Source: a virus
Length of the DNA: 34,506 nucleotides
Reading direction: 5' to 3' (one strand)
UHGV virus genome: UHGV-0828925
Both the position numbers and the translations under genes were made by a program. The notes under the pieces are model-generated. The model was given only the letters and a program-made list of their open reading frames with translations, did no database searches and had not been told where the DNA came from. Below, in pieces: positions 10,219-29,197 of this stretch (positions are counted from its first letter, which is position 1; each line of letters opens with the position of its first letter).

Positions 10219-11066
10219 TGGCGGATTCGAATCTCAATGTGCCGGTAATCATTCAGGCTACACGGCTAGACACATCAGTCCTTCCACGCAATATCTTCTC
10301 GCAGTCGTATCTGCTTTACGTTATCGCACAGGGCACTGATGTTGGTAACGTGGCTAACAAAGCCAACGAGGCCGGACAGGGCGCTTATGATGCACAGGTC
10401 AGGAACGATGAGCAGGATGTGATTCTCGCTGACCATGAGCAGCGAATTTCTGCTGCGGAAGCAACGCTTGTTAATCATGAGGAGCGAATCAGCCAGGCAG
10501 AATCAACTCTTCAGGACCATGAAACACGAATAGCTCAGAATGAAAGCGATATTTCGTCGCTTGACACAAGAGTTCAGTCGCTGGAATCGCAGGTTTCAGA
10601 CCATGAAACGCGCATCGATGCTCTGGAGTATGCCACTACTCGCAAGAAGTCGGAGGTTGTTTACTCTGGCGTATCTGTAACCATCCCGACAGCGCCGACC
10701 AACCTTGTTAGCCTACTGAAAACGCTCACGCCGTCATCCGGCTCGTTGGCACCATTCTTCGACACCGTTAACAACAAGATGGTTGTGTTCAACGAGAACA
10801 AAACCTTGTTCTTCAAGCTGTCGATCGTCGGGACGTGGCCCAGCGGAACCGCCAACAGGTCAATGCAGCTAACCTTTTCCGGCTCTGTTCCTGACACACT
10901 GGTAAGCAGTCGTAACTCGGCTACAACAACCGATAACATCCTGTTAGCTACGTTTTTCAGCGTGGATAAAGACGGCTTTCTTGCCACAAATGGCAGCACG
11001 TTAACCATTCAGTCAAATGGTGCGGCGTTTACTGCCACAACCATCAAGATAATCGCGGAGCAGTAA
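10218..11066 (+). CDS. gp26: Tail needle protein (gp26-like) with C-terminal extension
   Basis: 282 aa; N-terminal [14 protein letters not shown] plug motif, long trimeric coiled coil with repeated DHE(T/Q)RI heptads, plus about 50 extra C-terminal residues relative to P22 gp26 (233 aa), as in knob-bearing needles of Sf6-type phages. Confidence 0.85.
10431..10630 (+). repeat. Coding tandem repeats (heptad-encoding) in the tail needle gene
   Basis: Reiterated GACCATGA(G/A)... units encoding DHEQRIS / NHEERIS / DHETRIA / DHETRID. Confidence 0.7.
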
Positions 11067-15438: not shown

Positions 15439-15460
15439 CACTGTAAGCCAAGGACGGCAT

Positions 15461-15955
15461 TTATTTTATAGTTTTTATGAATTCTTTATTAAATCCCTTC
15501 GCTTCTCCGGGGTATCTTCCGAAGACAATTTTTATAAAAACAGAAAAAATAAAGATAGCAACGCTTAACAACAATTGCAGTATCATTGGAACCCAAAGAA
15601 CTACAGGCTCTATATTCATGAAACCAAATATTCTTCCGGCGATCATGGCGAAGTACCACACTGTTATCAGCAAACTTAGTGGCATATGAATTACTGATAT
15701 TACCAATCCAAGAGCATCAGTAATTCTGTTTTCAAATTTTTCAGGGGAAAACTTTTCTTTAAGGTAATTCAGTGCGCAGGCCTCATTCTCTGGATTTTCA
15801 GCATTTTTCCCTATAGCAATAGAAATCTCAGATATCCTTGATTCAATTCTTTTACGTTTAATAAAACTAGAAAAAAAGAACCACGCAATCTGCAACCCTA
15901 TCCCCAGAAATAGAGTTGCGGCAACTAGCACAGCGTAACTCATAGAATCAGACAC
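15461..15955 (-). CDS. Multi-pass inner-membrane protein, putative superinfection exclusion protein (SieA-like by position)
   Basis: 164 aa with an N-terminal TM helix and 2-3 C-terminal TM helices; AT-rich codon usage; sits between gp16 and mnt where P22 carries sieA. Function inferred from position only. Confidence 0.6.
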
Positions 15956-16037
15956 ACCAACCTCCTTAGTTTTACGCAGGATACCATGATGTCAGTGCAA
16001 GGGGGAGAAAGTCTCCTCATTATCTGATTCGCAATTT

Positions 16038-16073
16038 ACGTGCATATTTAAATATTGCACGTTACAACGTGCA
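16038..16073. promoter_or_regulatory. Overlapping palindromes in the divergent intergenic region (candidate operator/promoter)
   Basis: TGCATATTTAAATATTGCA (near-palindrome) overlapping TGCACGTT-AC-AACGTGCA (8-bp inverted repeat), between the divergent membrane-protein gene and the 16109 gene. Confidence 0.5.
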
Positions 16074-16108
16074 TGTGTATGATTGACTTATCAATCACAA
16101 CACGAGAT

Positions 16109-17122
16109 ATGCTCATGAAAAATGATGATGTTAGTGGGAAGGCCAAAGGCGGTAAGGCACGCGCGGCAAAAATGACAGCAGAGCAAAGAAAAGAATCCTC
16201 AAGAAAGGCTGTTGCCGCAAAAAAAGAAAAAGCTTTATTGCCCGTATCTGCGAATGAGGGAAAGTTAAAGATCGGTGATGCGGAATTAGATGTCGCGGTT
16301 CTCGAAAATGGACGGCGTATCATATCACAAGCTTCTGTTTTTAAAGCATTTGGCCGACCACAAAGAGGGGGTAGAGCACCTCAAGAAGAGGGGGTGATCA
16401 ATATGCCCGCTTTTATGGATGCTGCAAACCTTAAAAAATATATAAATCAAGATGTTATGGATGTGATCAATAAGGTCAAATACAAGACGATTACTGGCTC
16501 CGTCCAGGAAGGTTATGACGCATCCATAATACCTCTTGTCTGCGATGTTTATTTAAAGGCAAGAGAGGCAGGCGCTATCACCAGGCCAAACCAGTTAGAG
16601 ACAGCCAAGAAAGCTGAAATTCTGGTGCGCTCATTAGCTAAAGTCGGAATAATAGCGCTTGTTGATGAAGCGACGGGGTACCAGCGAGATAGAGAAAAAG
16701 ATGCACTCGCCAAAATACTCGAGGCCTTTGTCGCAAAGGAAATTCAACCTTATATTACAACATTTCCTGCTGATTATTATGAAGAGCTTTTCAGGTTAAG
16801 GGGCTTAGAATACCCGCCGGAAAATCCCCGCTTCCGGCCTCAGTATTTTGGCGTTTTGACAAATGATATCGTCTACAAGAGATTGGCACCAAACATCCTT
16901 GAGGAGCTTAAAAAGCAGAACGTAAAGGCCTCAAAAGGTACAAAGTTGTTTCAGGGGCTGACGCCAAATATTGGATATCAAAAATTAAGAGAGCATCTGT
17001 CATCAACCGTTACGATTATGAAGCTATCTAACGACTATTCAGATTTTATTGCAAAAATGAATCGCCTGCATCCAAGGTTTGAGGATGTGAAAACAGACGA
17101 ACTGGATGATTCAGACAAGTAA
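16109..17122 (+). CDS. Hypothetical protein with highly basic Lys/Ala-rich N-terminal tail (accessory gene)
   Basis: About 337 aa; N-terminal 60 residues K/A/R-rich (GKAKGGKARAAKMTAEQRKESSRKAVAAKKEK); AT-rich; start ambiguous between the ATGs at 16109 and 16115. Confidence 0.7.
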   Translation: MLMKNDDVSGKAKGGKARAAKMTAEQRKESSRKAVAAKKEKALLPVSANEGKLKIGDAELDVAVLENGRRIISQASVFKAFGRPQRGGRAPQEEGVINMPAFMDAANLKKYINQDVMDVINKVKYKTITGSVQEGYDASIIPLVCDVYLKAREAGAITRPNQLETAKKAEILVRSLAKVGIIALVDEATGYQRDREKDALAKILEAFVAKEIQPYITTFPADYYEELFRLRGLEYPPENPRFRPQYFGVLTNDIVYKRLAPNILEELKKQNVKASKGTKLFQGLTPNIGYQKLREHLSSTVTIMKLSNDYSDFIAKMNRLHPRFEDVKTDELDDSDK

Positions 17123-17126
17123 CAGT

Positions 17127-17150
17127 AACCCACCTTCAGGTGGGTTTTTT
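17127..17150 (+). terminator. Rho-independent terminator between convergent genes
   Basis: AACCCACC-TTCA-GGTGGGTT followed by TTTT; overlaps the mnt stop codon on the opposite strand. Confidence 0.7.
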
Positions 17151-17387
17151 GTACAAATCCTTCAGCGTATCAAACACCATCTTCTTAACAAGCTCTGACT
17201 GCTCATCAGCGAGTCGTTCTGCATCGTCGCGATAGCCTGCAATCGGTGATGGTTTTGATAGCGCATCCTGAACGATTTGTAATAACTCTGAGTTCATTGA
17301 CCTTCCGTTAGCCTCTGCTCTTAATTTCAATTTTTCTCTTACTTCCAAAGGCATACGGAAGTTAAAGTGCGGATCGTCTCTAGCCAT
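17136..17387 (-). CDS. mnt: Mnt repressor (ribbon-helix-helix)
   Basis: 83 aa MARDDPHFNFRMPLEVREKLKLRAEANGRSMNSELLQIVQDAL..., near-identical to my recollection of P22 Mnt. Confidence 0.9.
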   Translation of the reverse strand: MARDDPHFNFRMPLEVREKLKLRAEANGRSMNSELLQIVQDALSKPSPIAGYRDDAERLADEQSELVKKMVFDTLKDLYKKPT

Positions 17388-17410
17388 GCCATCACTCCAA
17401 GTTAGTATCT

Positions 17411-17674
17411 CTAACTTTCGTCTTTATTGTTGCTATACATGCATTTCAACTTCTCAACATCATGTTCAAGATCTATCAATCGTGATGCTATAGTTGCAAG
17501 GTCTAGTGCTTGAATGTGTTTATTTTTTTCGGTCCATGCTTCAAGTGCCGCGACCATCTCAGCATTTAATGAACGAGAATTAGCCTCAGCCAGTTCAATA
17601 AGACGTTCCTTTATCTCTACAGGAAGCCTCAGATTCACTTGAGGGTTTTTGTACTTACGATCAGACATCGGCAC
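17411..17674 (-). CDS. Second ribbon-helix-helix (Arc/Mnt-family) DNA-binding protein
   Basis: 87 aa; N-terminal NLRLPVEIKERLIELAEANSRSLNAEMVAALE matches the RHH beta-strand/helix pattern; upstream of and co-oriented with mnt. Confidence 0.75.
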   Translation of the reverse strand: MPMSDRKYKNPQVNLRLPVEIKERLIELAEANSRSLNAEMVAALEAWTEKNKHIQALDLATIASRLIDLEHDVEKLKCMYSNNKDES

Positions 17675-17704
17675 ATCCTGAATAATTTTTTACCACAGGA
17701 TATG

Positions 17705-17743
17705 TAGGTATCTATTGACTATCAATGCGTACCTAAATACTAT
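17705..17743 (+). promoter_or_regulatory. Rightward Pant-like promoter with overlapping inverted repeat (candidate Arc/Mnt operator)
   Basis: -35 TTGACT (17715..17720), 17-bp spacer, -10 TACTAT (17738..17743); TAGGTA...TACCTA inverted repeat spans the -35. Confidence 0.55.
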
Positions 17744-17773
17744 GTATGCGTACCACATACAACGGAGGATGCA

Positions 17774-17914
17774 ATGAAGGTAAAAACACTGCGTATGCCA
17801 GAGAAGTTAGAAAAAATCCTTGAAGAGAAAGCAAAGGAAGAGTGTCGCTCATTTAGTGCAGAAGTAATTAAACGGGTGATGGACAGCCTGAAGAGAGAGG
17901 GGATAACGGTATGA
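17774..17914 (+). CDS. arc: Arc-like ribbon-helix-helix repressor
   Basis: 46 aa MKVKTLRMPEKLEKILEEKAKEECRSFSAEVIKRVMDSLKREGITV; GGAGG SD 5 nt upstream; same architecture as P22 Arc; stop overlaps next ATG (ATGA). Below the 60-aa track threshold, found by reading. Confidence 0.7.
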   Translation: MKVKTLRMPEKLEKILEEKAKEECRSFSAEVIKRVMDSLKREGITV

Positions 17915-18114
17915 GTAAAGAATGTTGTTTCTGCGGCATTAGCGAATCAGACGCTGATCAAACATACATTTACTCTAAAGAAACAGGTCGGATGCTGTGT
18001 AGTGACTGCGTGTTGGACATCATAAGATACAAGCATCTTGGATGTTCTGCCAGCATTAGCAATATAGGTGAAGTATATGAAGGGAAAGATATAACTGATA
18101 GAGCAGAAAGTTGA
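17911..18114 (+). CDS. Small Cys-rich protein (possible zinc ribbon)
   Basis: 67 aa with CCFC...CSDC spacing (two Cys pairs); translationally coupled to arc. Confidence 0.5.
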   Translation: MSKECCFCGISESDADQTYIYSKETGRMLCSDCVLDIIRYKHLGCSASISNIGEVYEGKDITDRAES

Positions 18115-18176
18115 AGCCCCAACTGCGGTAACAGTCAGGACTTCGGTATCAACAAATCGGATTAGGAAATATTGAC

Positions 18177-19055
18177 ATGAAAAGTATAGCAAAGGCACAA
18201 AACGATTTCACCATCTTCAAATTCGGCGACAGTGAAATCCGCGTCATCAACAAATGCGGTGAGCCGTGGTTTGTAGCAAAAGATGTTTGTGATGCTTTAA
18301 CCCTGACTAACTCACGCAAGGCGCTTACTGCACTTGATGACGATGAAAAGGGAGTAACTTTAAGTTACACCCTTGGTGGTGAGCAGAATCTAAGCATTGT
18401 TAGCGAATCAGGTATGTATACATTGGTTCTGCGCTGCCGCGATGCTGTCAATAAAGGTTCGGTCCCGCACAAATTCCGCAAGTGGGTAACAGCAGAAGTT
18501 CTACCTTCAATTCGCAAACATGGCGAGTATGTGAAAGGCAAGAAAACCACTGTTGAGGAAAGAACGCCGCTACGCGATGCAGTAAACATGCTGGTAGGAA
18601 AGAAAGGACTTCGCTATGACGATGCATACAATATGGTTCATCAGCGTTTTGGTATTGACAGCATTGATGAACTTTCAATTGAACAAATCCCGCAAGCCGT
18701 AGAGTACATCCACAGGGTAGTGCTTGAAGGCGAATTCATCGGCAAACAAGAGAAGAAAACCGACGAGCTTTCTGCAAAAGAAGCAAACAGCCTTGTATGG
18801 TTATGGGATTATGCCAATCGTTCACAGGCATTATTCCGCGAACTGTATCCGGCATTAAAACAAATTCAATCGAACTATTCCGGCAGATGCTACGACTATG
18901 GTCATGAATTCTCGTATGTTATCGGAATGGCGAGAGACGTTTTAATCAATCACACACGAGATGTTGATATCAATGAGCCAGACGGACCAACGAATCTTTC
19001 CGCATGGATGAGACTTAAGAATAAAGAATTACCTCCTTCAGTACATAACTACTGA
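18177..19055 (+). CDS. ant: Antirepressor with Bro-N-type N-terminal domain
   Basis: 292 aa; N-terminal [30 protein letters not shown]... resembles the Bro-N domain; occupies the ant position after arc. Confidence 0.75.
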
Positions 19056-19074
19056 CAGATAACCAACGCAACGA

Positions 19075-19098
19075 CCCAGCTTCGGCTGGGTTTTTTAT
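19075..19098 (+). terminator. Rho-independent terminator after ant
   Basis: ACCCAGC-TTCG-GCTGGGT followed by TTTTTT. Confidence 0.8.
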
Positions 19099-19108
19099 GC
19101 CCAAAATT

Positions 19109-19229
19109 CACCGTAGCCACACTTAGGCAATGAGCTTGAAGGAGAGACCTACACAAAAAGTGTAGGTCGAAAAGCGAACAAAATAACTTCCGAAAAAGTT
19201 GTTTTATCACAAAAAACTCACCGTAGCCA
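19109..19229 (+). repeat. Direct repeats TCACCGTAGCCA flanking a hairpin upstream of the tailspike gene
   Basis: AAA(T/C)TCACCGTAGCCA at 19105..19120 and 19213..19229; hairpin ACCTACAC-AAAAA-GTGTAGGT at 19147..19167 between them. Confidence 0.55.
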
Positions 19230-19264
19230 TGCTGCGGCGATTCCTTGTATCTGGAGCAAATTAA

Positions 19265-21286
19265 ATGACAGATTCGATAAATGCCAATGTTGTAGTGAGT
19301 ATGCCTTCGCAACTCTTCACTATGGCGCGTTCTTTTAAAGCCGTAGCCAATGGCAAAATTTATATCGGTAAGATTGACACAGATCCGGTAAATCCAGAAA
19401 ACCAGATTCAGGTTTATGTGGAGAATGAAGACGGTTCTCACGTTCCTGTTTCGCAACCAATCATCATTAATGCTGCTGGATATCCGGTATATAACGGACA
19501 GATTGCCAAGTTCGTAACTGTGCAAGGTCATTCTATGGCTGTGTACGATGCGTATGGGGCGCGGCAGTTCTATTTTCCGAATGTGCTTAAGTATGATCCT
19601 GATCAGTTAAAAAACATTTTACTATCAAAATCTGGAGCATCAAATGTTTTCACGTCTTCTGGTGATAGCGTTCAAACATTTATAGATAACTATGCATTTA
19701 TTTATGCTGTTGATTATTTGCCTGAAAATTACGTTACAGACGGTTCTGTAGACTATCGCGCAGAAATACAAGAAGCAATCAATCATGCAACGAGCATAAA
19801 ATCAGCATTGGTTTTACCTCCATTTCAGTGCAAGATAACTCCGGTAGATCAGTTTGATGTTCCAGGTCTCCTAATCCCATCTAATTCAATAATTATAAAC
19901 CCACCAGGAGGATCGCTTAAGATTGGTGAAAATAGCTTTGAGCAATACGGGGTTATGACATTTTCAGATGTTGAAAATATAATTGTTATAAACCCAGTAT
20001 GCATTGGAGATAAAACAACTCACAAAGGACTGGACGGCGAGTTCGGAATGTGTTTCTTTATCAGGGGTGGGTGTAACAATATAGAAATAAAAAACCCTAA
20101 AGCCATTGATGCATGGGGAGATGGAATTTTTATTGGTCAGCACTGGCCTGATAAGGTCTCATACCCGAAGAAAATAACTATAACCAGACCAGTTACAGAA
20201 AACTGCCGTAGGCAAGGTATTAGCATTACATGTGGAGAGTCCATAGTCATCGATAGGCCAGAATTGAACAACACTGGTGATAGCGATTCAACACCCCTCC
20301 CAAACGGCCCATGGGCTGGAATCGACATAGAACCTAACTATTTTCAGACGCCGTTAAGGGGAATTCACGTCAATGGAGTTATAGGAAAGGGTAATAAAGG
20401 GCCGCTAACTCAAATCGCGCTAAATATGGCAGATACAAACATCCCACCAGAAGGTGGTAGATATGACTGCCAAATCACCATTGACGGGGTTTCTGATGAC
20501 TCATCAAGAGGAGCGTTTGAGTTTTGGGGGGTTCCTAACAGAGATTCTCTTTTTAACGGATACGTTTCAGTTAAGAACGTGTGCTCCAAGGGAGCGCTAA
20601 AAAACCCTATAATGATAAACAACCAATTCTACAAGTCAGGCTTGCGCCTACTAGTAGACAACGTATCAATAAATGATTGGTCTTGCTCATATTCAAGCAA
20701 CATTGATAAGGCCCCTATAGCCATTAAAACATCTGATTCATCACAATATCCATCATCAACACTTCCAGTACAGGGGAACTTTGAAATAAGAGATGTGTCT
20801 CTTAGCTCATCTCTTCCAGCTGAAAGCATATCAAAATATGCAATCGTAACAAACAATGCAAAAGGGTTTGTAGGTGCATATATATCGTTCAAGCATGTAA
20901 TATGTCCAGTAAAGCTAACCACTAACGTTTTTGGTAGGATTAATCTTGATCTAGGTTCATTTTACCAGACTCTAACATGTACAATGAATCCAGGTGAAAC
21001 TTTAAACCTTGCTTCATTATCTGATATTAAGATGAGCGAGCCTGGAGAGATCTCCCTTCCATCATCAATTGATAGCAGATTCAATGGTCAACAATATAGA
21101 TTAATGTATGACTCATCGTCTGGATTTATGAAGATGAATACATCTAGCCTTAACGTATTCGTAAACGGTAAAGCGGTTACTGCCGGATATGCTAATTTTT
21201 ATCCATCAGCAGGTGTAATATCAATAACTGTTGGTGTTAATGGGTTTGTTCTTATAAACACTCAGGGAGGATATACGCCATCATGA
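19265..21286 (+). CDS. gp9: Tailspike protein with P22-type head-binding N-domain and divergent receptor-binding domain
   Basis: 673 aa; first ~110 aa ([14 protein letters not shown]...[25 protein letters not shown]...[15 protein letters not shown]...NVLKYDPDQ) match the P22 gp9 head-binding domain as I recall it; the rest is AT-rich and unlike P22. Confidence 0.85.
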
Positions 21287-21440
21287 TTTTTTGAATTTTA
21301 TCCTATCGCATGCAAGTTAACTGGTTTTAGTAGATTCTCGCCCATGTCGTTATATGTACGCGCGGGTCAGCCAACCACTGCATCATTTCTCTGATTCTAT
21401 CGAGATACTGAGCATGATTGTAAATTCAACTAACCCAGTG

Positions 21441-21485
21441 AGTTGACAAAAAATTAGCGCAAGAGGACAAAAAATCACCTTGCGC
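21441..21485 (-). terminator. tI/sib-like terminator hairpin downstream of attP on the int transcript
   Basis: GCGCAAG...CTTGCGC stem followed on the minus strand by TAATTTTTTGT; corresponds to the lambda sib/tI region as I recall it. Confidence 0.55.
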
Positions 21486-21489
21486 TAAT

Positions 21490-21720
21490 GCTCTGTTACA
21501 GGTCACTAATACTATCTAAGTAGTTGATTCATAGTGACTGGATATGTTGTGTTTTACAGTATTATGCAGTCTATTTTTTAAGCTAAATGCATTATAAGGC
21601 ATTGATATTAATGATTTTACTGTTTCTTGTTCAGCTTCTTTATACTAAGTTGGCATTATAAAAAAGCATTGCTTATCAATTTGTTGCAACGAACAGGTCA
21701 CTATCAGTCAAAATAAAATC
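21490..21720. other. attP: attP (lambda-type) with variant core GCTTCTTTATACTAA at 21634..21648
   Basis: CAGCTTCTTTATACTAAGTTGGCATTATAAAAAAGCATTGCTTATCAATTTGTTGCAACGAACAGGTCACTATCAGTCAAAATAAAATCATTATTTG; arm-type sites (CAGGTCACTAT / GGTCACTATCAGTCA) on both sides. Confidence 0.85.
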
Positions 21721-21721
21721 A

Positions 21722-22792
21722 TTATTTGATTTCAATTTTGTCCCACTCCCTGCCTCTGTCATCACGATACTGTGATGCCATGGTGTCCGACTTATGCCCG
21801 AGAAGATGTTGAGCAAATTTATCGCTTATCTGCTTCTCATAGAGTCTTGCAGACAAACTGCGCAACTCGTGAAAGGTAGGCGGATCCCCTTCGAAGGAAA
21901 GACCTGATGCTTTTCGTGCGCGCATAAAATACCTTGATACTGTGCCGGATGAAAGCGGTTCACGACGAGTAGATGCAATTATGGTTTCTCCGCCAAGAAT
22001 CTCTTTGCATTTATCAAGTGTTTCCTTCATTGATATCCCGAGAGCATCAACATGCAATGTTGTAGGGATGGCAATTTTTACGCCTGTTTTGCTTTGTTCG
22101 ACATAAAGATATCCATCTACGATATCAGACCACTTCATTTCGCATAAATCACCAACTCGCTGCCCGGTAACAACAGCCAGTTCCATTGCAAGTCTGAGCC
22201 AACATGGTGATGATTCTGCTGCTTGATAAATTTTCAGGTATTCGTCAGCCGTAAGTCTTGATCTCCTTACCTCTGATTTTGCTGCGCGAGTGGCAGCGAC
22301 CGGGTTTGTTGTTATATGGCCTTCAGCTATTGCCTCTCGGAATGCATCGCTCAGTGTTGATCTGATTAACTTGGCTGACGCCGCCTTGCCCTCGTCTATG
22401 TATCCATTGAGCATTGCCGCAATTTCTTTTGTGGTGATGTCTTCAAGTGGAGCATCTGGCAGACCCCTCCTTATTGCTTTAATTTTGCTCATGTAATTTA
22501 TGAGTGTCTTCTGCTTGATTCCTCTGCTGGCCAGGATTTTTTCGTAGCGATCAAGCCATGAATGTAACGTAACGGAATTATCACTGTTGATTCTCGCTGT
22601 CAGAGGCTTGTGTTTGTGTCCTGAAAATAACTCAATGTTGGCCTGTATAGCTTCAGTGATTGCGATTCGCCTGTCTCGGCCTAATCCAAACTCTTTACCC
22701 GTCCTTGGGTCCCTGTAGCAGTAATATCCATTGTTTCTTATATAAAGGTTAGGGGGTAAATCCCGGCGCTCATGACTTCGCCTTCTTCCCAT
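21722..22792 (-). CDS. int: Tyrosine integrase (lambda Int-like)
   Basis: 356 aa MGRRRSHERRDLPPNLYIRNNGYYCYRDPRTGKEFGLGRDRRIAITEAIQANIELF...; near-identical to my recollection of lambda Int; adjacent to attP. Confidence 0.95.
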   Translation of the reverse strand: MGRRRSHERRDLPPNLYIRNNGYYCYRDPRTGKEFGLGRDRRIAITEAIQANIELFSGHKHKPLTARINSDNSVTLHSWLDRYEKILASRGIKQKTLINYMSKIKAIRRGLPDAPLEDITTKEIAAMLNGYIDEGKAASAKLIRSTLSDAFREAIAEGHITTNPVAATRAAKSEVRRSRLTADEYLKIYQAAESSPCWLRLAMELAVVTGQRVGDLCEMKWSDIVDGYLYVEQSKTGVKIAIPTTLHVDALGISMKETLDKCKEILGGETIIASTRREPLSSGTVSRYFMRARKASGLSFEGDPPTFHELRSLSARLYEKQISDKFAQHLLGHKSDTMASQYRDDRGREWDKIEIK

Positions 22793-22988
22793 TTCTGATC
22801 CTCTTCAAAAGGCTACCTGTTACTGGTCGATTTAAGTCAACCTTTACCGCTGATTCGTGGAACAGATACTCTCTTCCATCCTTAACCGGAGGAGGGAATA
22901 TCCTGCACTCGCGTACCCATCGACGAACTGTTTCAAGGCTTCTTGGGCGTCGCTGGCGTGCGTTCCACTCCTGAAGTGTCAAGTACAT
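22770..22988 (-). CDS. xis: Excisionase (lambda Xis-like)
   Basis: 72 aa MYLTLQEWNARQRRPRSLETVRRWVRECRIFPPPVKDGREYLFHESAVKVDLNRP...; overlaps int start as in lambda. Confidence 0.9.
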   Translation of the reverse strand: MYLTLQEWNARQRRPRSLETVRRWVRECRIFPPPVKDGREYLFHESAVKVDLNRPVTGSLLKRIRNGKKAKS

Positions 22989-23017
22989 CGCAAAGTCTCC
23001 GCAATTACACGCAAGAA

Positions 23018-23185
23018 AAAACCGCCATCAGGCGGCTTGGTGTTCTTTCAGTTCTTCAATTCGAATATTGGTTACGTCTGCATGTGCTATCTGCGCCCAT
23101 ATCATCCAGTGGTCATAGCAGTCATTGATGTTCTCTGCTTCGATAACTCTGTTGAATGGTTCTCCATTCCATTCACCTGTGACTC
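23018..23185 (-). CDS. Small hypothetical protein downstream of xis (55 aa)
   Basis: Hand-translated MHFRVTGEWNGEPFNRVIEAENINDCYDHWMIWAQIAHADVTNIRIEELKEHQAA; similar-sized ORF follows xis in lambda. Confidence 0.45.
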
Positions 23186-23313
23186 GGAAGTGCATTTATC
23201 ATCTCCATAAAACAAAACTCGCCGTAGCGAGTTCAGATAAAAGAAATCCCCGCGAGTGCGAGGATTGTTATTCATTGCCGATATTCACCTTTATCGCGAA
23301 CACCTTTACCGGT

Positions 23314-23556
23314 TTATCTCCTTTGCATGGCGCGTAATTTTTTCAGATGGTTCTCCTGCTCTGTTTCAGCCAGAATTTGTCGGTATTCCTGGTGATCGAT
23401 CCGTTCAAACAGTTCATTAAAATCGTTTATTTTTACCGACTGTGTTCGCCCATCCATTCTTCTGTACAACACAGTGTTGTTTATGCAGCGAAGAATTTTT
23501 ATCGGGTAGCCGGCGCTATCGGTGTATATCTGACCACGTTGAATCAGAGCGAACAT
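23314..23556 (-). CDS. Hypothetical protein (about 80 aa)
   Basis: ATG with AAGGA SD chosen inside track ORF 23314..23610, whose first codon is TTG. Confidence 0.45.
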   Translation of the reverse strand: MFALIQRGQIYTDSAGYPIKILRCINNTVLYRRMDGRTQSVKINDFNELFERIDHQEYRQILAETEQENHLKKLRAMQRR

Positions 23557-23630
23557 TCCTTTATCCCCAGCGGAAAAGCGAATACAGAATAAATGCCACC
23601 GCGATTGCAACTCCTACAGCGGTGAATGCT

Positions 23631-24815
23631 TCAGGCCAATTCATCATTCACTCCCTGCGGCGGTTCTGGTAGCAGCATCCAGTACAAGGCGTTCCCTAAC
23701 CACGATAAAGTGCCGTCGCTCAACTCCACGTATTCCCCTTGTACCTGTCCTGCCATATACTCGCCGTGCTTTGAATAAATTAAAACCCAATCGTCTTGAG
23801 CGGGAATTCGCTCACTACAGCTTATCCAGGCATCCAGAGTTACCTGAGAATTGCCATTTACCAAGTCAGCTCGAACATATAGCGTGTCATCATGGTGCTG
23901 ATTGTGGCTGCACCACGTTAATTCGCTTAACTCGCCATCTTCTGGCCATACTCCAGCTGTTTGCAGCCAGATATGGGCTGGCGCATCCTGGCAAGGTGTA
24001 TTAACTGGAAACTTGTAAGTTTGGCTTACAGGTTGGCTACCCTGAAGCATGGCAGCGTGGCAGGCATACTCAACGCCCTTAACTGCATCTGCGCAGTAGT
24101 TATAGCGATTGCATTCCACTAATTTCCGTTTGAGTTTTTCAATTGCCTGCGCGACATCAGCCTGTATTACAGGAACTGGCGGAACGGCTGTTTGCTCTCG
24201 AACGTCATTAGTCGCTATCGGTTCTGCTGCCAACTGACTGGCATATTTGTTAATGGTAACGATAAGCTCTTGCTCAGCCTCATCCAGACAATCACCGATA
24301 CCTCGCCTGTCACCGTCAAAATCATCGAAATCGGCACGAATCTTGGCAACCTTCAGGATTGCGGACAACACCTCACTAGGAATTACCGGATAGTTGGTTG
24401 ACGTTTCCGCGATTTCCCGAAAATTATTGGTTGACGAATTCTTATTTTCCCGAAAGTTTCCGGACTGAAGCATGGCGGCGCGGCAGGCGTTCCAGCCATC
24501 TGCGTAACAATCTCTGTGTGTCTTGAAATATGTCACCGCCCTTGGTACATCGTTTACGTCTATTTCATCCGGCACAACCGGCGCAGGTGAGTCAGCATAA
24601 ACAGGAATAACGTCCGGTTGCTCTTTATTGCTTTCATCCGTTAAAGCCCAGAATAATTTCCCGGCCGGATGTTTGAAAATATAAGCAACTGGATCTGCTT
24701 CCAGCGATGCCAGTGCAATTTCATAAGCACGGCGCTCAATATTGTCTCGAACGTCCAAGCTGCCTATGCGCTCTTTGATTTCTTTAATCAGTTCTTTGTC
24801 GGTGAAAGTGGTCAT
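23631..24815 (-). CDS. Hypothetical protein with internal duplication and DUF551-like C-terminal domain
   Basis: 394 aa; two similar Cys-containing segments (DCYADGWNACRAAMLQSG... and NYCADAVKGVEYACHAAMLQGS...); C-terminal W..SERIP...DGTLSWLGNALYWMLLPEPP pattern typical of DUF551 as I recall it. Confidence 0.65.
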   Translation of the reverse strand: MTTFTDKELIKEIKERIGSLDVRDNIERRAYEIALASLEADPVAYIFKHPAGKLFWALTDESNKEQPDVIPVYADSPAPVVPDEIDVNDVPRAVTYFKTHRDCYADGWNACRAAMLQSGNFRENKNSSTNNFREIAETSTNYPVIPSEVLSAILKVAKIRADFDDFDGDRRGIGDCLDEAEQELIVTINKYASQLAAEPIATNDVREQTAVPPVPVIQADVAQAIEKLKRKLVECNRYNYCADAVKGVEYACHAAMLQGSQPVSQTYKFPVNTPCQDAPAHIWLQTAGVWPEDGELSELTWCSHNQHHDDTLYVRADLVNGNSQVTLDAWISCSERIPAQDDWVLIYSKHGEYMAGQVQGEYVELSDGTLSWLGNALYWMLLPEPPQGVNDELA

Positions 24816-25021
24816 TTGTTAATCCTCAAAACTTTATGCCCGGGCGCAAAAGCACGCGTTTTGTCTTTGCTTATTCGCCAGCCATCCTTGCGCGCCTCTT
24901 TTGCACAGCCAGCCCATGACGTACCTATATACTCACCGAAGTCTGGCGACTTATATTTGCCATCTGTACACTGGAGGCAATCACAATAGAGATGCATGGT
25001 GTAACTTGCAGCGATAGCCAT
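24812..25021 (-). CDS. Small Cys-rich hypothetical protein (69 aa)
   Basis: ATG with AAGGAGAG SD inside track ORF 24812..25093; CDC..C motif. Confidence 0.5.
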   Translation of the reverse strand: MAIAASYTMHLYCDCLQCTDGKYKSPDFGEYIGTSWAGCAKEARKDGWRISKDKTRAFAPGHKVLRINK

Positions 25022-25022
25022 A

Positions 25023-25211
25023 TCACTCTCCTTTAGTGCGCAAGTGGTTTTTCCAGCGGTTTTGCGCCGCGCTGGGCTTTTTGCAAAAACCACAATCCAT
25101 CATCCCGTAATATTTCATCAACCCCATCCGTCGGTTGCTGAGTCTCACCCACTGCCAGACGCCAGGAGCGTTTCTACGAACTAACAGAATCTTTGCTTTA
25201 CGGTTTTTCAT
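25023..25211 (-). CDS. Small basic protein, tandem paralog 1 (MKNRKAK...)
   Basis: 62 aa; shares N-terminal MKNRKAK and C-terminal QNR(W/R)K motif with the ORF immediately upstream; DNA-level direct repeat (T/C)TTACGGTTTTTCATC at both starts. Confidence 0.45.
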   Translation of the reverse strand: MKNRKAKILLVRRNAPGVWQWVRLSNRRMGLMKYYGMMDCGFCKKPSAAQNRWKNHLRTKGE

Positions 25212-25384
25212 CTTACTGCGTACCCTTTCTTCCGCCTGTTCTGTGACGCAGTAGGCTTACGCTTTGCGGCAAAAGCCACCTGACCAAATGGATGGAGTAC
25301 CGCTATCTTATGGTTGCTAATAACCAGCTCCACCACACGCACAGGTCGCTGTAAAAAAAGTCGTTTTGCCTTACGGTTTTTCAT
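25208..25384 (-). CDS. Small basic protein, tandem paralog 2 (MKNRKAK...)
   Basis: 58 aa hand-translated (MKNRKAKRLFLQRPVRVVELVISNHKIAVLHPFGQVAFAAKRKPTASQNRRKKGYAVR); stop overlaps next ATG (ATGA). Confidence 0.4.
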   Translation of the reverse strand: MKNRKAKRLFLQRPVRVVELVISNHKIAVLHPFGQVAFAAKRKPTASQNRRKKGYAVR

Positions 25385-25556
25385 CGCTTTGCTCTCCTGC
25401 GTCTCTTTGCTGCTCGTCGTGCCGCTGCAATACCGGTATGGCGGCGCTTTGGTGCTGGGGTGATGTTGTCAGCCATCAGGACCTGTGGCTTTGCAATTAG
25501 CGCAGAAGCCCAAAAACGAGTCGGGTACGGTAACAAGCCAATACATGCCACACGCA

Positions 25557-26003
25557 CTACTCACCTCCGTTGATGCGAATGCCTGTTGCAATGCTGTTTA
25601 TGATGCTGTCAGTGCATGGGGTAGAAAGCTGGGCATCTCCAGCAATTTTCATGACATCAACATCTGCATATCGAATACCGAGGTGTATCAGACCGGCTAT
25701 ACCTGACTTAAGCCGAGCATTTTCCATAAACAGATCCTTTGCCCGCTGTTTTTCTGCCTCAAGCTCAACGCGCAACTTCCCTACCGTTAGCGCAATATCC
25801 TCGTTCTCCTGGTCGCGGGATTTGATGTATTGCTGGTTTCTTTCCAGTTCATCCAGCAGTGCCAGCGCGATATCTGGCGAAAAGTGCTTCATAAAATCGT
25901 TAAGCGCATTAATTCGCTGATCGAAGGGCATTACAGGTGCTTCACCAGCAATTTTTGTTTTTTCAGCGATTTCACGAAGCTTTTGATAATCAATCTTGCT
26001 CAC
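25557..26003 (-). CDS. Hypothetical coiled-coil protein
   Basis: 148 aa, charged heptad-rich central region; start overlaps the stop of the upstream gene. Confidence 0.6.
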   Translation of the reverse strand: MSKIDYQKLREIAEKTKIAGEAPVMPFDQRINALNDFMKHFSPDIALALLDELERNQQYIKSRDQENEDIALTVGKLRVELEAEKQRAKDLFMENARLKSGIAGLIHLGIRYADVDVMKIAGDAQLSTPCTDSIINSIATGIRINGGE

Positions 26004-26692
26004 TGGTTGCCTCCTTTGCGAAGCTGTTCAGCAATACTTACGCATATCTCTGCGCCTCTAATCAGCCCCGGAACGTTCTTGTTTGGCCCAACTTCACCAT
26101 CAACAAAATCAATCATCGCGTTACGAGCCATATCCACCCCCTGCGCACGTACTTCAGCCAGGAGAGCGTCGGTGGCTGGGGTTTCGATATTAGGTAGAAG
26201 CGCATAATCGCAAATCGTATCGATCGCAGGATCACAACAGTCATCCTCGTTGCGTGGTCGTTCGCCAACCTTCGTTGACGATTGCATGATGATTCCCCAG
26301 CAAATACTATCGACCTCTTCGCTCCATCCATCGCAAGCATCACCGCGATAGTCGTCGATTGCAGCCTCAGCCGATTCGATAGCTTCCTCAGCAGTTTTGT
26401 GCCATTCGAAATTATGCTCAGAGCCATATGAGAAATATGAATGTCCCGCCTTCAGCCCAGCATTCTCCGCTGCCAGCGCCACGCACTTGGCCTCAAGGTT
26501 ATCAATCGTGATTCCAACAGAACGACACTCCCGCAACGCCGTTTCCAGTTTTGATTCAAGTTCACCGAACTTACGGACAAGATATTCAGCGTTTGTTTCG
26601 TTGACCTTTAAATCTCGTGGGATGCATTTGCCTTTCAGAAATCCATCCATCTCAATTAGTGACATTTGTTTCATTTCTTCCCACTCCGGCAC
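26000..26692 (-). CDS. Hypothetical acidic Cys-containing protein
   Basis: 230 aa ORF in an operon-like arrangement on the minus strand. Confidence 0.6.
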
Positions 26693-26835
26693 ATCGCATT
26701 CAGATATTTGTTTTGATTTACTGACGGAAAAGAATTTCTCTTAAGTAATTCCTCTCTCGATGGCATTGGCTTTACGCGTTGGCGAATAATCATTTCTGCA
26801 GGAAGAATGCCGGGGTTGTATGCAAGTCCTCTCAT
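26671..26835 (-). CDS. Small hypothetical protein (54 aa)
   Basis: ATG with GAGGAA SD inside track ORF 26671..26988, immediately after the stop of the upstream gene. Confidence 0.35.
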
Positions 26836-26845
26836 GGTAAATTCC

Positions 26846-27142
26846 TCAGTCATTACTGATAGCGCCATAGCGTGAGCGGTAATTACGCAGGCGCGGGTCG
26901 ATATATTCAGGGAAGTGGGTATATGTGGCTTTACGGAATGGTCTGATTGATGTCTGGTAAATTCGCTCTCGTTCTTCTTTCTCTGCAAGCCATATACAGT
27001 GGCGAAATTCCTTTTCCTCTTTCGTTTCCTGTGGTAGCGACATTATCCGATCGTAGTTTTTTCTGAATTTATCTAGCACCTCCGATACGGATTTGCCGGA
27101 ACAGCGGCGCGGGTCATCCGCACCATACAAAGGCGCTGGCAT
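26846..27142 (-). CDS. Hypothetical protein (98 aa)
   Basis: ORF in the same leftward operon, charged/basic composition. Confidence 0.5.
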
Positions 27143-27158
27143 GTTTTTCTCCTGTTTA

Positions 27159-27707
27159 TTATTTAGCTAACTTTTTCCAGATCGCTGAAACGTATTTGGC
27201 TTGGTGGATGGCATCATCAAGCGCGTTGTGGCGAGTTCCTTTGAATGGCATATCTCGCTTAGGGTCGAATCCTATTACCTTTCCAAGCTCGACGATTGTT
27301 CTTACGTCGCGGTCATTCCACCACTGCCACGGAACTGGCTGCCCTGTCAGCGAATAACTGTTTCGGAGAATAACGCAGTCAAATGATGCTCCATTCCCCC
27401 AAACCTGAACGAATTTGTGGTTAGCGTTCTTTATGATGAATTCAGATAACCATGAAAGAGCCGTTGAAAGCTCCTGAGTGTTGCTGGTTAGCGATTTTCT
27501 GGCTTCTTCACTCTGTTCCAGCCACCATAAAATCGTTGAAGCGTCAGGACGCGCCCGATATCGCATTGATGACTCAAGCGAGATATTTACCGAGAACTCT
27601 TCTCCTGTTTCTCCGGTATTCGGTTCAAAGAATACCGCCCCAATAGAAATAACTGGCGCGTATGGCCCGTTGCCCATTGTTTCAAGGTCAACCATCAAGT
27701 GATTCAT
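27159..27707 (-). CDS. DEDDh-type 3'-5' exonuclease (DnaQ-like)
   Basis: 182 aa; N-terminal MVDLETMG (Exo I D-x-E), later GASFDCVIL and HNALDDAIHQAKY (Exo III H-x4-D) motifs. Confidence 0.75.
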   Translation of the reverse strand: MNHLMVDLETMGNGPYAPVISIGAVFFEPNTGETGEEFSVNISLESSMRYRARPDASTILWWLEQSEEARKSLTSNTQELSTALSWLSEFIIKNANHKFVQVWGNGASFDCVILRNSYSLTGQPVPWQWWNDRDVRTIVELGKVIGFDPKRDMPFKGTRHNALDDAIHQAKYVSAIWKKLAK

Positions 27708-27715
27708 GTAAGTCC

Positions 27716-28231
27716 TTAAATTGCGTGAATAGCGTGACGAGGGAAAGGGAGAGTTACTGGTGCAAAGGGGATATCGTCGTCAAAATCCATAGGTGGTTCG
27801 CTGTGATTTACCTGCTTCTGAGGCTGCTGTTTTTGTTGCTGACCGTTATTTCGCTGAGGTGAAGACTGTTCATTGCCTCCTTGCTTGCCACCAAGCATTT
27901 GCATGGTTCCACCAACGCCCACGATAACTTCGGTAGTGAACCGATCCTGTCCACTTTGATCCTGCCATTTTCTTGTCCGCAATTTGCCTTCAAGATAAAC
28001 CTCAGAGCCTTTTCGCAGATATTCGCTGGCAATTTCTGCCAGTTTCCCGCTCATTACCACGCGGTGCCACTCCGTCTGCTCCTTTTGCTCTCCAGTTTGC
28101 TTATCACGCCATTGTTCTGACGTAGCAACTGTAAGGTTTGCAAATGCCGTTCCTGATGGTGAATATCTGATTTCTGGATCATGCCCAAGGCGACCAATAA
28201 TGATCACCTTATTTACGCCTCTGCTTGCCAT
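27716..28231 (-). CDS. ssb: Single-stranded DNA-binding protein
   Basis: 171 aa; OB-fold N-terminal region ([34 protein letters not shown]), Gly/Gln-rich linker and acidic C-terminal tail DFDDDIPF. Confidence 0.9.
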
Positions 28232-28939
28232 TTATGCCGCCTGTTTTAGTTCGTTAACTCTGATGTTCATTACCTGAACGCATTTAGCCTGCGCCTCCTC
28301 GTTGCCAGCCATTAATTGCCAGTCACGCTGATAACGCTCGATGAGTTTTTCCTTGTCAGTTTCTGTCGATGCATAATCGCTGAAGTCTTTCAGGATTTGT
28401 TCGCAGTCAACCGATGGAGATTTCTGGTTGGTATTTTCTGGTGATGGTTGATTGCCAGATGCTGGCATTGCCCATCCCGGCAGCGATGGAGGGGACCAGT
28501 AAAATCCTGTTCCATCTTTCAGTTTTGCCCTGTGCCATCCCTGCTTTTTATCGAGAGATGTTTGTGCGAAACCTTCCTCAAGGTTATACAGATACCGACC
28601 GATTCCCCACTGAACGGCAGCGCGCTTCATTGCACCGGAACGACCACCTTTGACGGCTTCTACCTGCGTGTTTTCAGCAGCATCCCATTTGGTTACCCAT
28701 TCGGAATCAATCTTTATTGATATGCCGCATTCAACGCCGCCGTTGTTGGGAATATCGCGGTATTCATTGCGCCATCCTGCTTTGCCACAAACATCGTCCA
28801 GGCGTTTCATGATTGCCCGGTTCGTTACATAAGCCAGCACCATAGCCCACACTTTGCCATCGCGTGTTTTACCGCTTTGCTGTATTCGCCATTCGATATC
28901 TTCAGGGCTGAATGGCTCATCGAATTTATTCAAATCCAT
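28232..28939 (-). CDS. Single-strand annealing recombinase (Rad52/Sak-like core with Erf-like C-terminal region)
   Basis: 235 aa; ...AMKRAAVQWGIGRYLY motif as in Rad52-family annealing proteins; C-terminal DFSDYASTETDKEKLIERYQRDWQLMAGNEEAQAKCVQVMNIRVNELKQAA resembles the P22 Erf C-terminus as I recall it. Confidence 0.7.
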   Translation of the reverse strand: MDLNKFDEPFSPEDIEWRIQQSGKTRDGKVWAMVLAYVTNRAIMKRLDDVCGKAGWRNEYRDIPNNGGVECGISIKIDSEWVTKWDAAENTQVEAVKGGRSGAMKRAAVQWGIGRYLYNLEEGFAQTSLDKKQGWHRAKLKDGTGFYWSPPSLPGWAMPASGNQPSPENTNQKSPSVDCEQILKDFSDYASTETDKEKLIERYQRDWQLMAGNEEAQAKCVQVMNIRVNELKQAA

Positions 28940-29038
28940 AATTCACCTCAGAATGGACATGGCCCAAGGAAATAACGCTGATTTAATACTTCGACTCGGG
29001 ACAAATTAAGGCATACCCGCATTCCTTCGCGGTCACCA

Positions 29039-29197
29039 TTATGGCGATACCAGAGAGCTTTCTGCGTGTACATGCGTCTCTGTAACTTGCTCTCCTTCAC
29101 TGTGGTTGCAAGTGACATGAATATCTCCTTCGTTACCGATTAATTCTTTCATCTGACGAATGAATTCTTCGTCTGACCAGTTATCTGTAAAATTCAT
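29039..29197 (-). CDS. Small hypothetical protein (kil position)
   Basis: 52 aa from internal ATG of track ORF 29039..29227 (first codon TTG); ATG overlaps the cIII-like stop. Confidence 0.35.
   Translation of the reverse strand: MNFTDNWSDEEFIRQMKELIGNEGDIHVTCNHSEGEQVTETHVHAESSLVSP

What the first reader, a model, noticed from the sequence alone, without database searches (positions are those of the whole stretch)
21490..22988. Lambda-type integration module with a variant attP core in a P22-type virion backbone
Int, Xis and the arm-type sites look essentially like lambda as I remember it, but the core reads GCTTCTTTATACTAA (C at position 5) where lambda has GCTTTTTTATACTAA. The left arm also shows several substitutions relative to my recollection of lambda. 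It predicts integration at or near the lambda attB site between gal and bio, with possibly altered core binding.
Basis: partly seen in the sequence, partly recalled or inferred. Interest (0 to 1): 0.35.

Follow-up and report, generated by a model that had tools for sequence, protein, structure and literature searches.

The report
Lambda-type attP with one-base core variant
This is an ordinary phage-lambda/434-type integration module (attP, int, xis) in a P22-like E. coli phage; its one unusual base sits just outside the strand-exchange segment, and matching prophage junctions show the phage still inserts at the classical lambda site between gal and bio.

Summary
Window 21634-21648 reads GCTTCTTTATACTAA, while lambda, 434, Huey, ev099 and JEP4 read GCTTTTTTATACTAA. 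The C (21638) is lambda position -3. It is the last base of the C core-type Int site and lies immediately left of the intact 7-bp overlap TTTATAC (21639-21645).

The rest of the module is standard:
- Int is identical to phage Huey Int and differs from lambda Int at 3 residues.
- Xis is identical to 434 Xis.
- All five arm-type sites, three IHF sites, C', the P' arm (0/77 differences) and the tI/sib hairpin are conserved.
- The 19 P-arm differences from lambda belong to a natural allele that also occurs in E. coli prophages inserted beside ybhB-bioA.

The C is rare. None of 66 other distinct natural P-arm alleles has it, and none of 5,411 E. coli B sides has it.

The C is also real and functional. 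In two ENA metagenome samples, attR contigs are 100% identical to window 19265-21648 and read P-GCTTC-TTTATAC-B'-ybhB-bioA. The attL contigs from the same samples read ybhC-B-GCTTT-TTTATAC-P'-int. So the phage integrates at lambda attB and the C stays with the P arm, as top-strand cleavage between -3 and -2 predicts.

Any effect on Int binding is untested. Interest is low.

The parts
21446..21496 (-). tI terminator / sib-type hairpin just beyond the P arm, read in the direction of int transcription
   Evidence: Folds at -24.1 kcal/mol (z = -5.7) and is followed by a U run. It aligns with lambda 27540-27585 with one substitution and one extra A. The tI/sib name comes from the HK97 and 434 record annotations and from my own knowledge of lambda.
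21500..21509 (+). P1 arm-type Int site (AGGTCACTAA)
   Evidence: Exact match to lambda 27589-27598.
21517..21529 (-). H1 IHF site (AATCAACTACTTA)
   Evidence: Matches WATCAANNNNTTR and is identical to lambda 27606-27618.
21531..21540 (-). P2 arm-type Int site (CAGTCACTAT)
   Evidence: Exact match to lambda 27620-27629.
21560..21594 (+). Stretch aligned with lambda's Xis (X1, X1.5, X2) and Fis sites; the most polymorphic part of the P arm
   Evidence: Placed by alignment with lambda and 434; the site boundaries come from my own knowledge. Most of the window's differences from lambda fall here. These columns vary across 66 natural alleles.
21595..21607 (-). H2 IHF site (TATCAATGCCTTA)
   Evidence: Matches WATCAANNNNTTR. 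It differs from lambda only in the NNNN spacer. It sits 32 bp from the overlap, against 33 bp in lambda.
21632..21640 (+). C core-type Int site, CAGCTTCTT (lambda CAGCTTTTT); the variant base C is at 21638 (position -3)
   Evidence: T is found here in all 66 other natural P-arm alleles. The C also occurs in attR of L220 and L221.
21634..21648 (+). 15-bp 'common core' GCTTCTTTATACTAA
   Evidence: It corresponds to lambda misc_recomb 27724-27738 and to the K-12 attB core at 807328-807342.
21639..21645 (+). 7-bp overlap (strand-exchange) region TTTATAC, unchanged
   Evidence: The overlap sequence and its numbering follow PMC2952878. The natural junctions place the crossover between 21638 and 21649.
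21644..21652 (-). C' core-type Int site (CAACTTAGT)
   Evidence: Exact match to lambda 27734-27742.
21674..21686 (+). H' IHF site (TATCAATTTGTTG)
   Evidence: Identical to lambda 27764-27776.
21695..21725 (+). P'1, P'2 and P'3 arm-type Int sites (21695-21704, 21705-21714, 21716-21725)
   Evidence: Exact matches to lambda 27785-27815. The P' arm has 0 differences from lambda in 77 bases.
21722..22792 (-). int, a 356-aa heterobivalent tyrosine integrase
   Evidence: ORF. Pfam hits are PF09003 (arm-binding domain), PF22022/PF02899 and PF00589. The protein is identical to Huey Int. It differs from lambda Int at H164P, A245T and I248V, all three shared with 434, ev099 and mEp332. R212, K235, H308, R311, H333 and Y342 are all present.
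22770..22988 (-). xis, a 72-aa excisionase whose 3' end overlaps the start of int
   Evidence: ORF. Pfam PF07825 at 3.9e-41. Identical to 434 Xis; one difference from lambda Xis, G59S.

Best explanation
This is a functional lambda/434-type site-specific integration module carried by a P22-like temperate phage of Escherichia coli.

**How it works (established lambda pathway).**
- Int binds the arm-type sites (P1, P2, P'1-P'3) with its N-terminal domain. It binds the core-type sites C and C' with its C-terminal domains.
- IHF bends the DNA at H1, H2 and H'.
- The assembled attP complex captures the bacterial attB between ybhC and ybhB-bioA.
- Tyr342 first cleaves the top strands at C and B, between positions -3 and -2. 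The bottom strands are then cleaved at C' and B'.
- Strands are swapped across the identical 7-bp overlap TTTATAC.
- Xis, with Fis and IHF, reverses the reaction.

**Where the variant base sits.** The T-to-C change is at -3. This is the nucleotide whose 3' phosphate becomes linked to Int at the C site. It lies one base outside the overlap.
- It creates no heterology with attB.
- It stays with the P arm.
- It ends up in attR but not in attL, and it is regenerated in attP on excision.

**What is shown and what is inferred.**
- Shown here: the anatomy, the insertion site and the segregation of the C.
- Inferred: the order and chemistry of the steps, from the established lambda pathway.
- My judgement: the C is a rare, tolerated polymorphism. 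Its effect on Int affinity or cleavage rate at C is at most modest.
For: **Anatomy**
- Core GCTTCTTTATACTAA with an intact overlap and an intact C'.
- All five arm-type sites and three IHF sites match lambda.
- P' arm 0/77 differences; int plus xis 98.6% nucleotide identity to lambda.

**Proteins**
- Int is identical to Huey Int and differs from lambda Int at 3 residues.
- Xis is identical to 434 Xis.
- The Pfam domains and the catalytic residues R212, K235, H308, R311, H333 and Y342 are present.

**Natural junctions**
- attR contigs L220 and L221 come from two ENA samples. They are 100% identical to window 19265-21648 and then switch at 21649 to cttgagcgaaacggg..., followed by ybhB-bioA-bioB. 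They carry the C.
- attL contigs L223 and L224 come from the same two samples. They read ybhJ-ybhC, B arm, GCTTTTTTATACTAA, then P' arm, int and xis. They are 99.84-99.96% identical to window 21634-29000 and carry T.
- The flanks are 99-99.7% identical to E. coli K-12 and abut its attB core on both sides.

**Persistence of the allele**
- The immunity-I region (about 15.4-19.2 kb) differs between the window and L220, while 19265-21648 is identical. The C allele therefore sits on at least two genome backgrounds.

**Mechanism from papers**
- The 7-bp overlap is TTTATAC. Positions -2 and -1 are its left boundary. Identity is required only within the overlap (PMC2952878).
- The first exchange always occurs at C and B, through Tyr342 3'-phosphotyrosine links. 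Int binds core sites weakly (PMC4880445).

**The combination is already known**
- P22-like phages with this module are on record: JEP4 (Lederbergvirus) and Huey.
- So are prophages beside ybhB-bioA in E. coli UMNF18, A11 and STEC1588.
Against: - **No activity was measured.** The C could lower or raise Int binding or cleavage at the C site.
- **T at -3 looks conserved.** It is invariant in the 66 other distinct natural P-arm alleles surveyed, although nearby P-arm columns vary. In an unbiased set of IMG/VR attR junctions, 38 of 39 alleles have T. The exception is a lambda b2-like deletion joint. This is compatible with some purifying selection on that base.
- **attL and attR are not physically linked.** In each sample they lie on separate metagenome contigs. 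Assigning them to one prophage is an inference from shared sample and near-identity to the window.
- **Site assignment is by sequence only.** The Xis and Fis sites were placed by alignment, not tested. The H2-to-core spacing is 1 bp shorter than in lambda.
Confidence: 0.9

Rival explanations
1. The C at core position 5 is a sequencing or assembly error in the window, and the true core is the lambda core.
For: It is a single base. The C was absent from all four of these sources:
- 5,426 complete E. coli genomes
- the phage and plasmid record collections
- IMG/VR, GTDB representatives and JGI metagenomes, where the only matches were unrelated chance hits
- 66 other natural P-arm alleles
Against: The same C occurs in two independently assembled ENA metagenome contigs from different samples (L220, L221). 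Their sequence is otherwise 100% identical to the window over 2,384 bases up to the recombination joint.
Confidence: 0.02
2. The variant core retargets the phage to a different chromosomal site, for example a secondary site or a host attB allele that also has C at that position.
For: In tyrosine recombinase systems, core changes can alter site preference.
Against: - The change lies outside the 7-bp overlap, whose identity governs partner choice.
- The attR and attL junctions lie exactly at the K-12 attB core between ybhC and ybhB.
- None of the B sides of 5,411 E. coli genomes matches a C-bearing query exactly.
- All 120 IMG/VR matches to the core-plus-P' pattern carry T. Of these, 111 are attL joints with the bacterial B arm on the left.
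Confidence: 0.03
3. The C at -3 is a functionally significant core-site allele. It measurably changes Int binding or top-strand cleavage at the C site, and so tunes integration or excision frequency, without changing the target.
For: - The base lies within the C core-type Int site. Its 3' phosphate becomes linked to Tyr342 in the first strand exchange.
- T is invariant here across the 66 other natural alleles, although neighbouring P-arm columns vary.
- Int binds core sites only weakly, so small changes could matter.
Against: - From my own knowledge: the position corresponds to an unspecified base of the core-type consensus CAACTTNNT. My text search for that consensus found no paper.
- The four natural lambda core sites already carry either T or A there (read from the sequences).
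- The allele integrates in nature and persists on two genome backgrounds.
- No measurement exists in either direction.
Confidence: 0.2

Closest known systems
Phage lambda attP-int-xis (J02459 27579-29078)
   Same: - Same organisation and spacing of P1, H1, P2, H2, C, overlap, C', H' and P'1-P'3.
- Identical P' arm.
- Identical overlap TTTATAC.
- Int differs at 3 of 356 residues and Xis at 1 of 72.
- Same attB between ybhC and ybhB-bioA.
   Different: - T to C at core position 5 (-3).
- 19 differences in the P arm, concentrated in the Xis/Fis stretch and the H2-to-core spacer.
- The H2-to-core distance is 1 bp shorter.
- The module sits after a P22-type tailspike gene rather than after lambda's b region.
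Phage 434 att-int-xis (M60848)
   Same: - Xis is identical and Int differs at 1 residue.
- The P-arm allele is closer to the window's than lambda's is in the X1 part of the Xis-site stretch.
- The record annotates the same attP core.
   Different: - 434 has T at -3.
- 434 has two substitutions just right of C' (GTAGGCC against the window's GTTGGCA).
- 434 has a lambdoid siphovirus virion.
P22-like E. coli phages Huey (PQ850609) and JEP4 (MT740315, Lederbergvirus)
   Same: Same architecture: P22-type tailspike, a short spacer, a lambda-type attP, then int and xis. Huey Int is identical to the window's Int.
   Different: - Both have the canonical core with T at -3.
- Both have other P-arm alleles.
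- Their tailspike receptor-binding domains differ from the window's.
Prophages at attB-lambda in E. coli STEC1588, UMNF18 and A11 (NZ_CP129263, NZ_AGTD01000001, NZ_CP028763)
   Same: - Nearly the same P-arm allele: 1-2 differences in 160 bases, including the 1-bp shorter H2-to-core spacer.
- Each is joined to B' and ybhB-bioA, which shows this allele is integration-competent.
   Different: - Their attR core has T at -3.
- The genes next to the att site differ: a truncated tailspike gene in STEC1588, and an acyltransferase gene between the tailspike gene and att in A11.

Membership tests
Lambda-type (heterobivalent tyrosine integrase) integration module | Tyrosine recombinase catalytic domain with the R-K-H-R-H-Y active-site residues | tested here: met
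   PF00589 at 1.7e-40. R212, K235, H308, R311, H333 and Y342 are present.
Lambda-type (heterobivalent tyrosine integrase) integration module | N-terminal arm-type DNA-binding domain on the integrase | tested here: met
   PF09003 Arm-DNA-bind_1 at 7.1e-33, residues 1-69.
Lambda-type (heterobivalent tyrosine integrase) integration module | Five arm-type sites (P1, P2, P'1-P'3) and three IHF sites (H1, H2, H') flanking the core, with lambda spacing | tested here: met
   Exact motif matches at positions corresponding to lambda's. The only spacing change is H2-to-core, 32 bp against 33 bp.
Lambda-type (heterobivalent tyrosine integrase) integration module | Two inverted core-type sites flanking a 7-bp overlap identical to that of attB | tested here: met
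   C is CAGCTTCTT (one change from lambda), the overlap is TTTATAC and C' is CAACTTAGT. The K-12 attB overlap is identical.
Lambda-type (heterobivalent tyrosine integrase) integration module | Small excisionase gene upstream of int and overlapping it | tested here: met
   xis at 22770-22988 (-) overlaps int by 23 nt. PF07825 at 3.9e-41. Identical to 434 Xis.
Lambda-type (heterobivalent tyrosine integrase) integration module | Integration at attB-lambda between gal and bio (ybhC | ybhB-bioA), giving attL = BOP' and attR = POB' | tested here: met
   attR in L220 and L221, and attL in L223 and L224, abut the K-12 attB core. The flanks are 99-99.7% identical to K-12.
Lambda-type (heterobivalent tyrosine integrase) integration module | Int/IHF-dependent integrative recombination and Xis-dependent excisive recombination, shown biochemically | not testable with these tools
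The only evidence is that attP, attL and attR forms all exist in nature.
P22-like (Lederbergvirus-type) virion and immunity-I backbone | P22-type terminase, portal, coat, ejection protein (gp16-type), tailspike with P22 head-binding domain, and Ant with sar antisense RNA | tested here: met
   - 82.6% nucleotide identity to P22 over 53% of window 1-25000.
- PHROG hits for terminase, portal, head protein, DNA transfer protein and Ant.
- PF09008 Head_binding on the tailspike.
- Rfam sar RNA, 68.5 bits, at 18109-18175 (-).

The most novel reading that the evidence does not exclude
The C at -3 is not neutral. It would be a naturally circulating core-site allele that alters Int binding or the rate of the first (top-strand) cleavage at the C site. 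That would shift the balance or efficiency of integration against excision in this phage lineage. It is the only non-T base among 67 distinct natural P-arm alleles (the window plus 66 others). If it has an effect, it would be a natural handle on how the base carrying the phosphotyrosine link contributes to catalysis.
Probability: 0.15. Interest if true: 0.3.

Novelty: already known. Interest (0 to 1): 0.1.

Why it matters
It matters little for biology at large. The module is the textbook lambda/434 system, and its presence in P22-like E. coli phages is already on record (JEP4, Huey and several prophages).

Two small points of value remain.

- **A natural crossover marker.** The one-base variant shows in wild lysogens that the crossover lies to the right of position -3. 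The C is in attR and the T is in attL.
- **Tolerance at a conserved position.** A base that is otherwise invariant in nature can be C without blocking integration at attB.

For annotation, the practical message is that this phage should be recorded as integrating at attB-lambda.

Tried and rejected
- **Exact-pattern scans for the C-bearing core.** I scanned IMG/VR, GTDB species representatives and JGI metagenomes. They gave only five unrelated chance matches (L010-L014). These collections do not hold the allele.
- **BLAST of short att segments.** Searches against 5,426 complete E. coli genomes, the phage records and the plasmid records gave no exact match.
- **A host attB allele with C at -3.** None of the 5,411 genomes matched a C-bearing B-arm query exactly.
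- **What finally found the allele.** An exact-protein look-up with the phage's own tailspike and a neighbouring gene located it in ENA assemblies.
- **Literature.**
  - A full-text search for the core-type consensus CAACTTNNT found nothing.
  - The Landy 2015 review is not held under the PMC id I recalled.
  - I found no paper that reports a measurement on a -3 T-to-C site.
  - Statements about the consensus and about older mutational work therefore rest on my own knowledge and are marked as such.
- **A cluster of private A:T-to-G:C changes as a sign of mutagenesis.** Rejected. Only 5 private changes were found in 1.9 kb against a small panel. Across the 185-base P-arm segment compared with 66 natural alleles, the -3 C was the only window base found in none of them.
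- **The single non-T junction in the unbiased IMG/VR attR set (L215).** It is a lambda b2-like deletion joint, not a variant C site.

Full report
**1. The observation**

Window 21634-21648 reads GCTTCTTTATACTAA. It is the only site in the window within two mismatches of the lambda core.

The resemblance is homology, not chance. Window 21444-23050 is 97.6% identical to lambda 27534-29140.

I fetched lambda (J02459), 434 (M60848), Huey, ev099 and JEP4 and aligned them.

**2. Anatomy**

Exact motif searches located the sites at positions matching lambda's:

| Site | Window coordinates |
|---|---|
| P1 | 21500-21509 |
| H1 | 21517-21529 |
| P2 | 21531-21540 |
| H2 | 21595-21607 |
| C | 21632-21640 |
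| overlap TTTATAC | 21639-21645 |
| C' | 21644-21652 |
| H' | 21674-21686 |
| P'1-P'3 | 21695-21725 |

The only spacing change is H2-to-overlap, 32 bp against 33 bp in lambda.

- The tI/sib-type hairpin lies at 21446-21496 and folds at -24.1 kcal/mol, z = -5.7.
- The P' arm has 0 differences from lambda in 77 bases.
- int plus xis have 18 differences in 1,267 nt.
- The P arm has 19 differences including indels. None falls in an arm-type site or at an IHF consensus position.

Proteins:
- Int is identical to Huey Int. It differs from lambda Int at H164P, A245T and I248V, all shared with 434, ev099 and mEp332.
- Xis is identical to 434 Xis and differs from lambda Xis at G59S.
- The Pfam domains (PF09003, PF00589, PF07825) and all six catalytic residues are present.

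**3. Where the variant base lies**

The Landy laboratory paper PMC2952878 gives the top-strand overlap as 5'-TTTATAC-3'. Its third base is position 0, and positions -2 and -1 form its left boundary. The paper states that the overlap must be identical between partners.

In GCTTC|TTTATAC|TAA the C is therefore position -3, one base outside the overlap and inside the C core-type site.

[quoted passage not shown] It also states that Int binds core sites weakly.

From my own knowledge, -3 corresponds to the first N of the core-type consensus CAACTTNNT. The four natural lambda core sites carry T or A there, as can be read from the sequences.

These facts give three predictions:
- no heterology with attB;
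- the C stays with the P arm and appears in attR but not in attL;
- excision regenerates the C in attP.

**4. How common is the C?**

It is rare. It was not found in any of the following:
- 5,426 complete E. coli genomes. Seven carry this P-arm allele, all with T.
- The phage and plasmid record collections.
- IMG/VR, GTDB representatives and JGI metagenomes, apart from chance matches.

Other surveys agree:
- 84 IMG/VR attP or attR sites retrieved with the variant position left free all have T.
- In an unbiased set of 77 attR junctions (39 alleles), 38 alleles have T. The exception (L215) is a lambda b2-like deletion joint.
- Across 66 distinct natural P-arm alleles, 21638 is the only position where the window's base is seen in no other allele.
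- No B side among 5,411 E. coli genomes matches a C-bearing query exactly.

**5. Is the C real, and where does the phage integrate?**

An exact-protein look-up with the window's tailspike found ENA metagenome contigs from two samples (L220, L221).
- Sequence 100% identical to window 19265-21648, including the C, is joined at 21649 to cttgagcgaaacggg..., followed by ybhB, bioA and bioB.

A look-up with the 394-aa protein at 23631-24815 found contigs in the same two samples (L223, L224).
- They read ybhJ, ybhC, B arm, GCTTTTTTATACTAA, then P' arm, int and xis.
- They are 99.84-99.96% identical to window 21634-29000 and carry T at -3.

The bacterial flanks are 99-99.7% identical to E. coli K-12. 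They abut its attB core (807328-807342) on both sides.

Four conclusions follow:
- The C is not an error.
- The phage integrates exactly at attB-lambda.
- The crossover lies between 21638 and 21649.
- The C segregates into attR only, as predicted in section 3.

The immunity-I region (about 15.4-19.2 kb) differs between the window and L220. The allele therefore sits on at least two mosaic backgrounds.

One caveat applies. attL and attR are on separate contigs in each sample, so linking them to one prophage is an inference.

**6. The left-arm substitutions**

These are not private to this phage. The window's P-arm allele, including the 1-bp shorter H2-to-core spacer, recurs with 1-2 differences in attR of prophages beside ybhB-bioA in E. 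coli STEC1588, UMNF18 and A11.

The columns that differ from lambda are the ones that vary across natural alleles: the Xis/Fis stretch and the H2-to-core spacer.

**7. The backbone**

Window 1-25000 matches P22 at about 82.6% identity over 53% of its length. It matches E. coli P22-like phages (APC_JM3.2, IME10, HZ41) at 95-96% over about 45%.

PHROG, Pfam and Rfam hits support the same conclusion:
- terminase, portal, coat and gp16-type DNA transfer protein;
- Ant;
- a tailspike with the P22 head-binding domain;
- sar RNA.

P22-like phages with a lambda-type int-xis-attP are already on record: JEP4 and Huey.

**8. Verdict**

This is the known lambda/434 integration system in a known kind of mosaic.

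It carries a rare single-base polymorphism just outside the strand-exchange region. That polymorphism does not prevent integration at attB-lambda. Whether it changes Int binding or cleavage kinetics at the C site is untested. I put the chance of a measurable effect at about 0.15-0.2.

Novelty: already known. Interest: low.

Noticed in passing
L215 (IMGVR_UViG_3300003862_000001), reverse strand about 10683-10713: Lambda sequence runs at 99.6% identity up to lambda position 21737, inside orf-314 (GGTATTGCTTATTTAT). It is then joined directly to the att core and B' (ACTAACTTGAGCG). This looks like a lambda b2-type, Int-mediated deletion between a secondary site in the tail-fibre region and att. 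The secondary site has A at -3.
   Followed up: partly
window 21560-21630, and the P arms of loci L018-L219: Natural lambda-type P arms are very polymorphic in two stretches: the part aligned with the Xis/Fis sites, and the H2-to-core spacer. There are 66 distinct alleles among 93 sequences. By contrast, the arm-type sites, the IHF cores and the core are nearly invariant. The window's P' arm is identical to lambda's. The cause of this local diversity was not examined.
   Followed up: partly
window 21607-21639: In this P-arm allele the H2 IHF site lies 32 bp from the overlap, against 33 bp in lambda. The prophages in E. coli STEC1588, UMNF18 and A11 share this, so a 1-bp change in this bend-to-core distance is tolerated.
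   Followed up: partly
window 18109-18175 (-): Rfam sar RNA (RF00262, 68.5 bits), the P22 immunity-I antisense RNA, lies immediately upstream of the ant gene (18177-19055).
   Followed up: no
window about 15440-19260, compared with L220 1-4000: The immunity-I region between the gp16-type gene and the tailspike is mosaic. The window carries a P63C-domain ORF (16055-17122) and a 292-aa Ant. The otherwise matching prophage contigs carry a PIN-domain gene, Arc/Mnt-type genes and a 300-aa Ant. Identity is only about 91-93% in the short shared pieces.
   Followed up: partly
window 19265-21286 (+): The tailspike has a P22 head-binding N-terminal domain (PF09008). The remaining roughly 550 residues have no Pfam hit, so the receptor specificity is unknown. 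The exact protein recurs in at least three metagenome assemblies (L220-L222).
   Followed up: no
L016 (mEp332 PV340541, record end), and 4 of 39 IMG/VR attR alleles: Some natural alleles read TTCAACTTT rather than TTCAGCTTT at the C core-type site. They have A instead of G at -7, the first base of the 15-bp 'common core'. The common core is therefore not strictly invariant on the phage side.
   Followed up: no
window 23028-23195 (-) and 23631-24815 (-): Upstream of xis lie a homologue of the 55-aa ORF annotated in the 434 record and a 394-aa DUF551-family protein of unknown function. The latter is conserved exactly in the metagenome prophage contigs.
   Followed up: no
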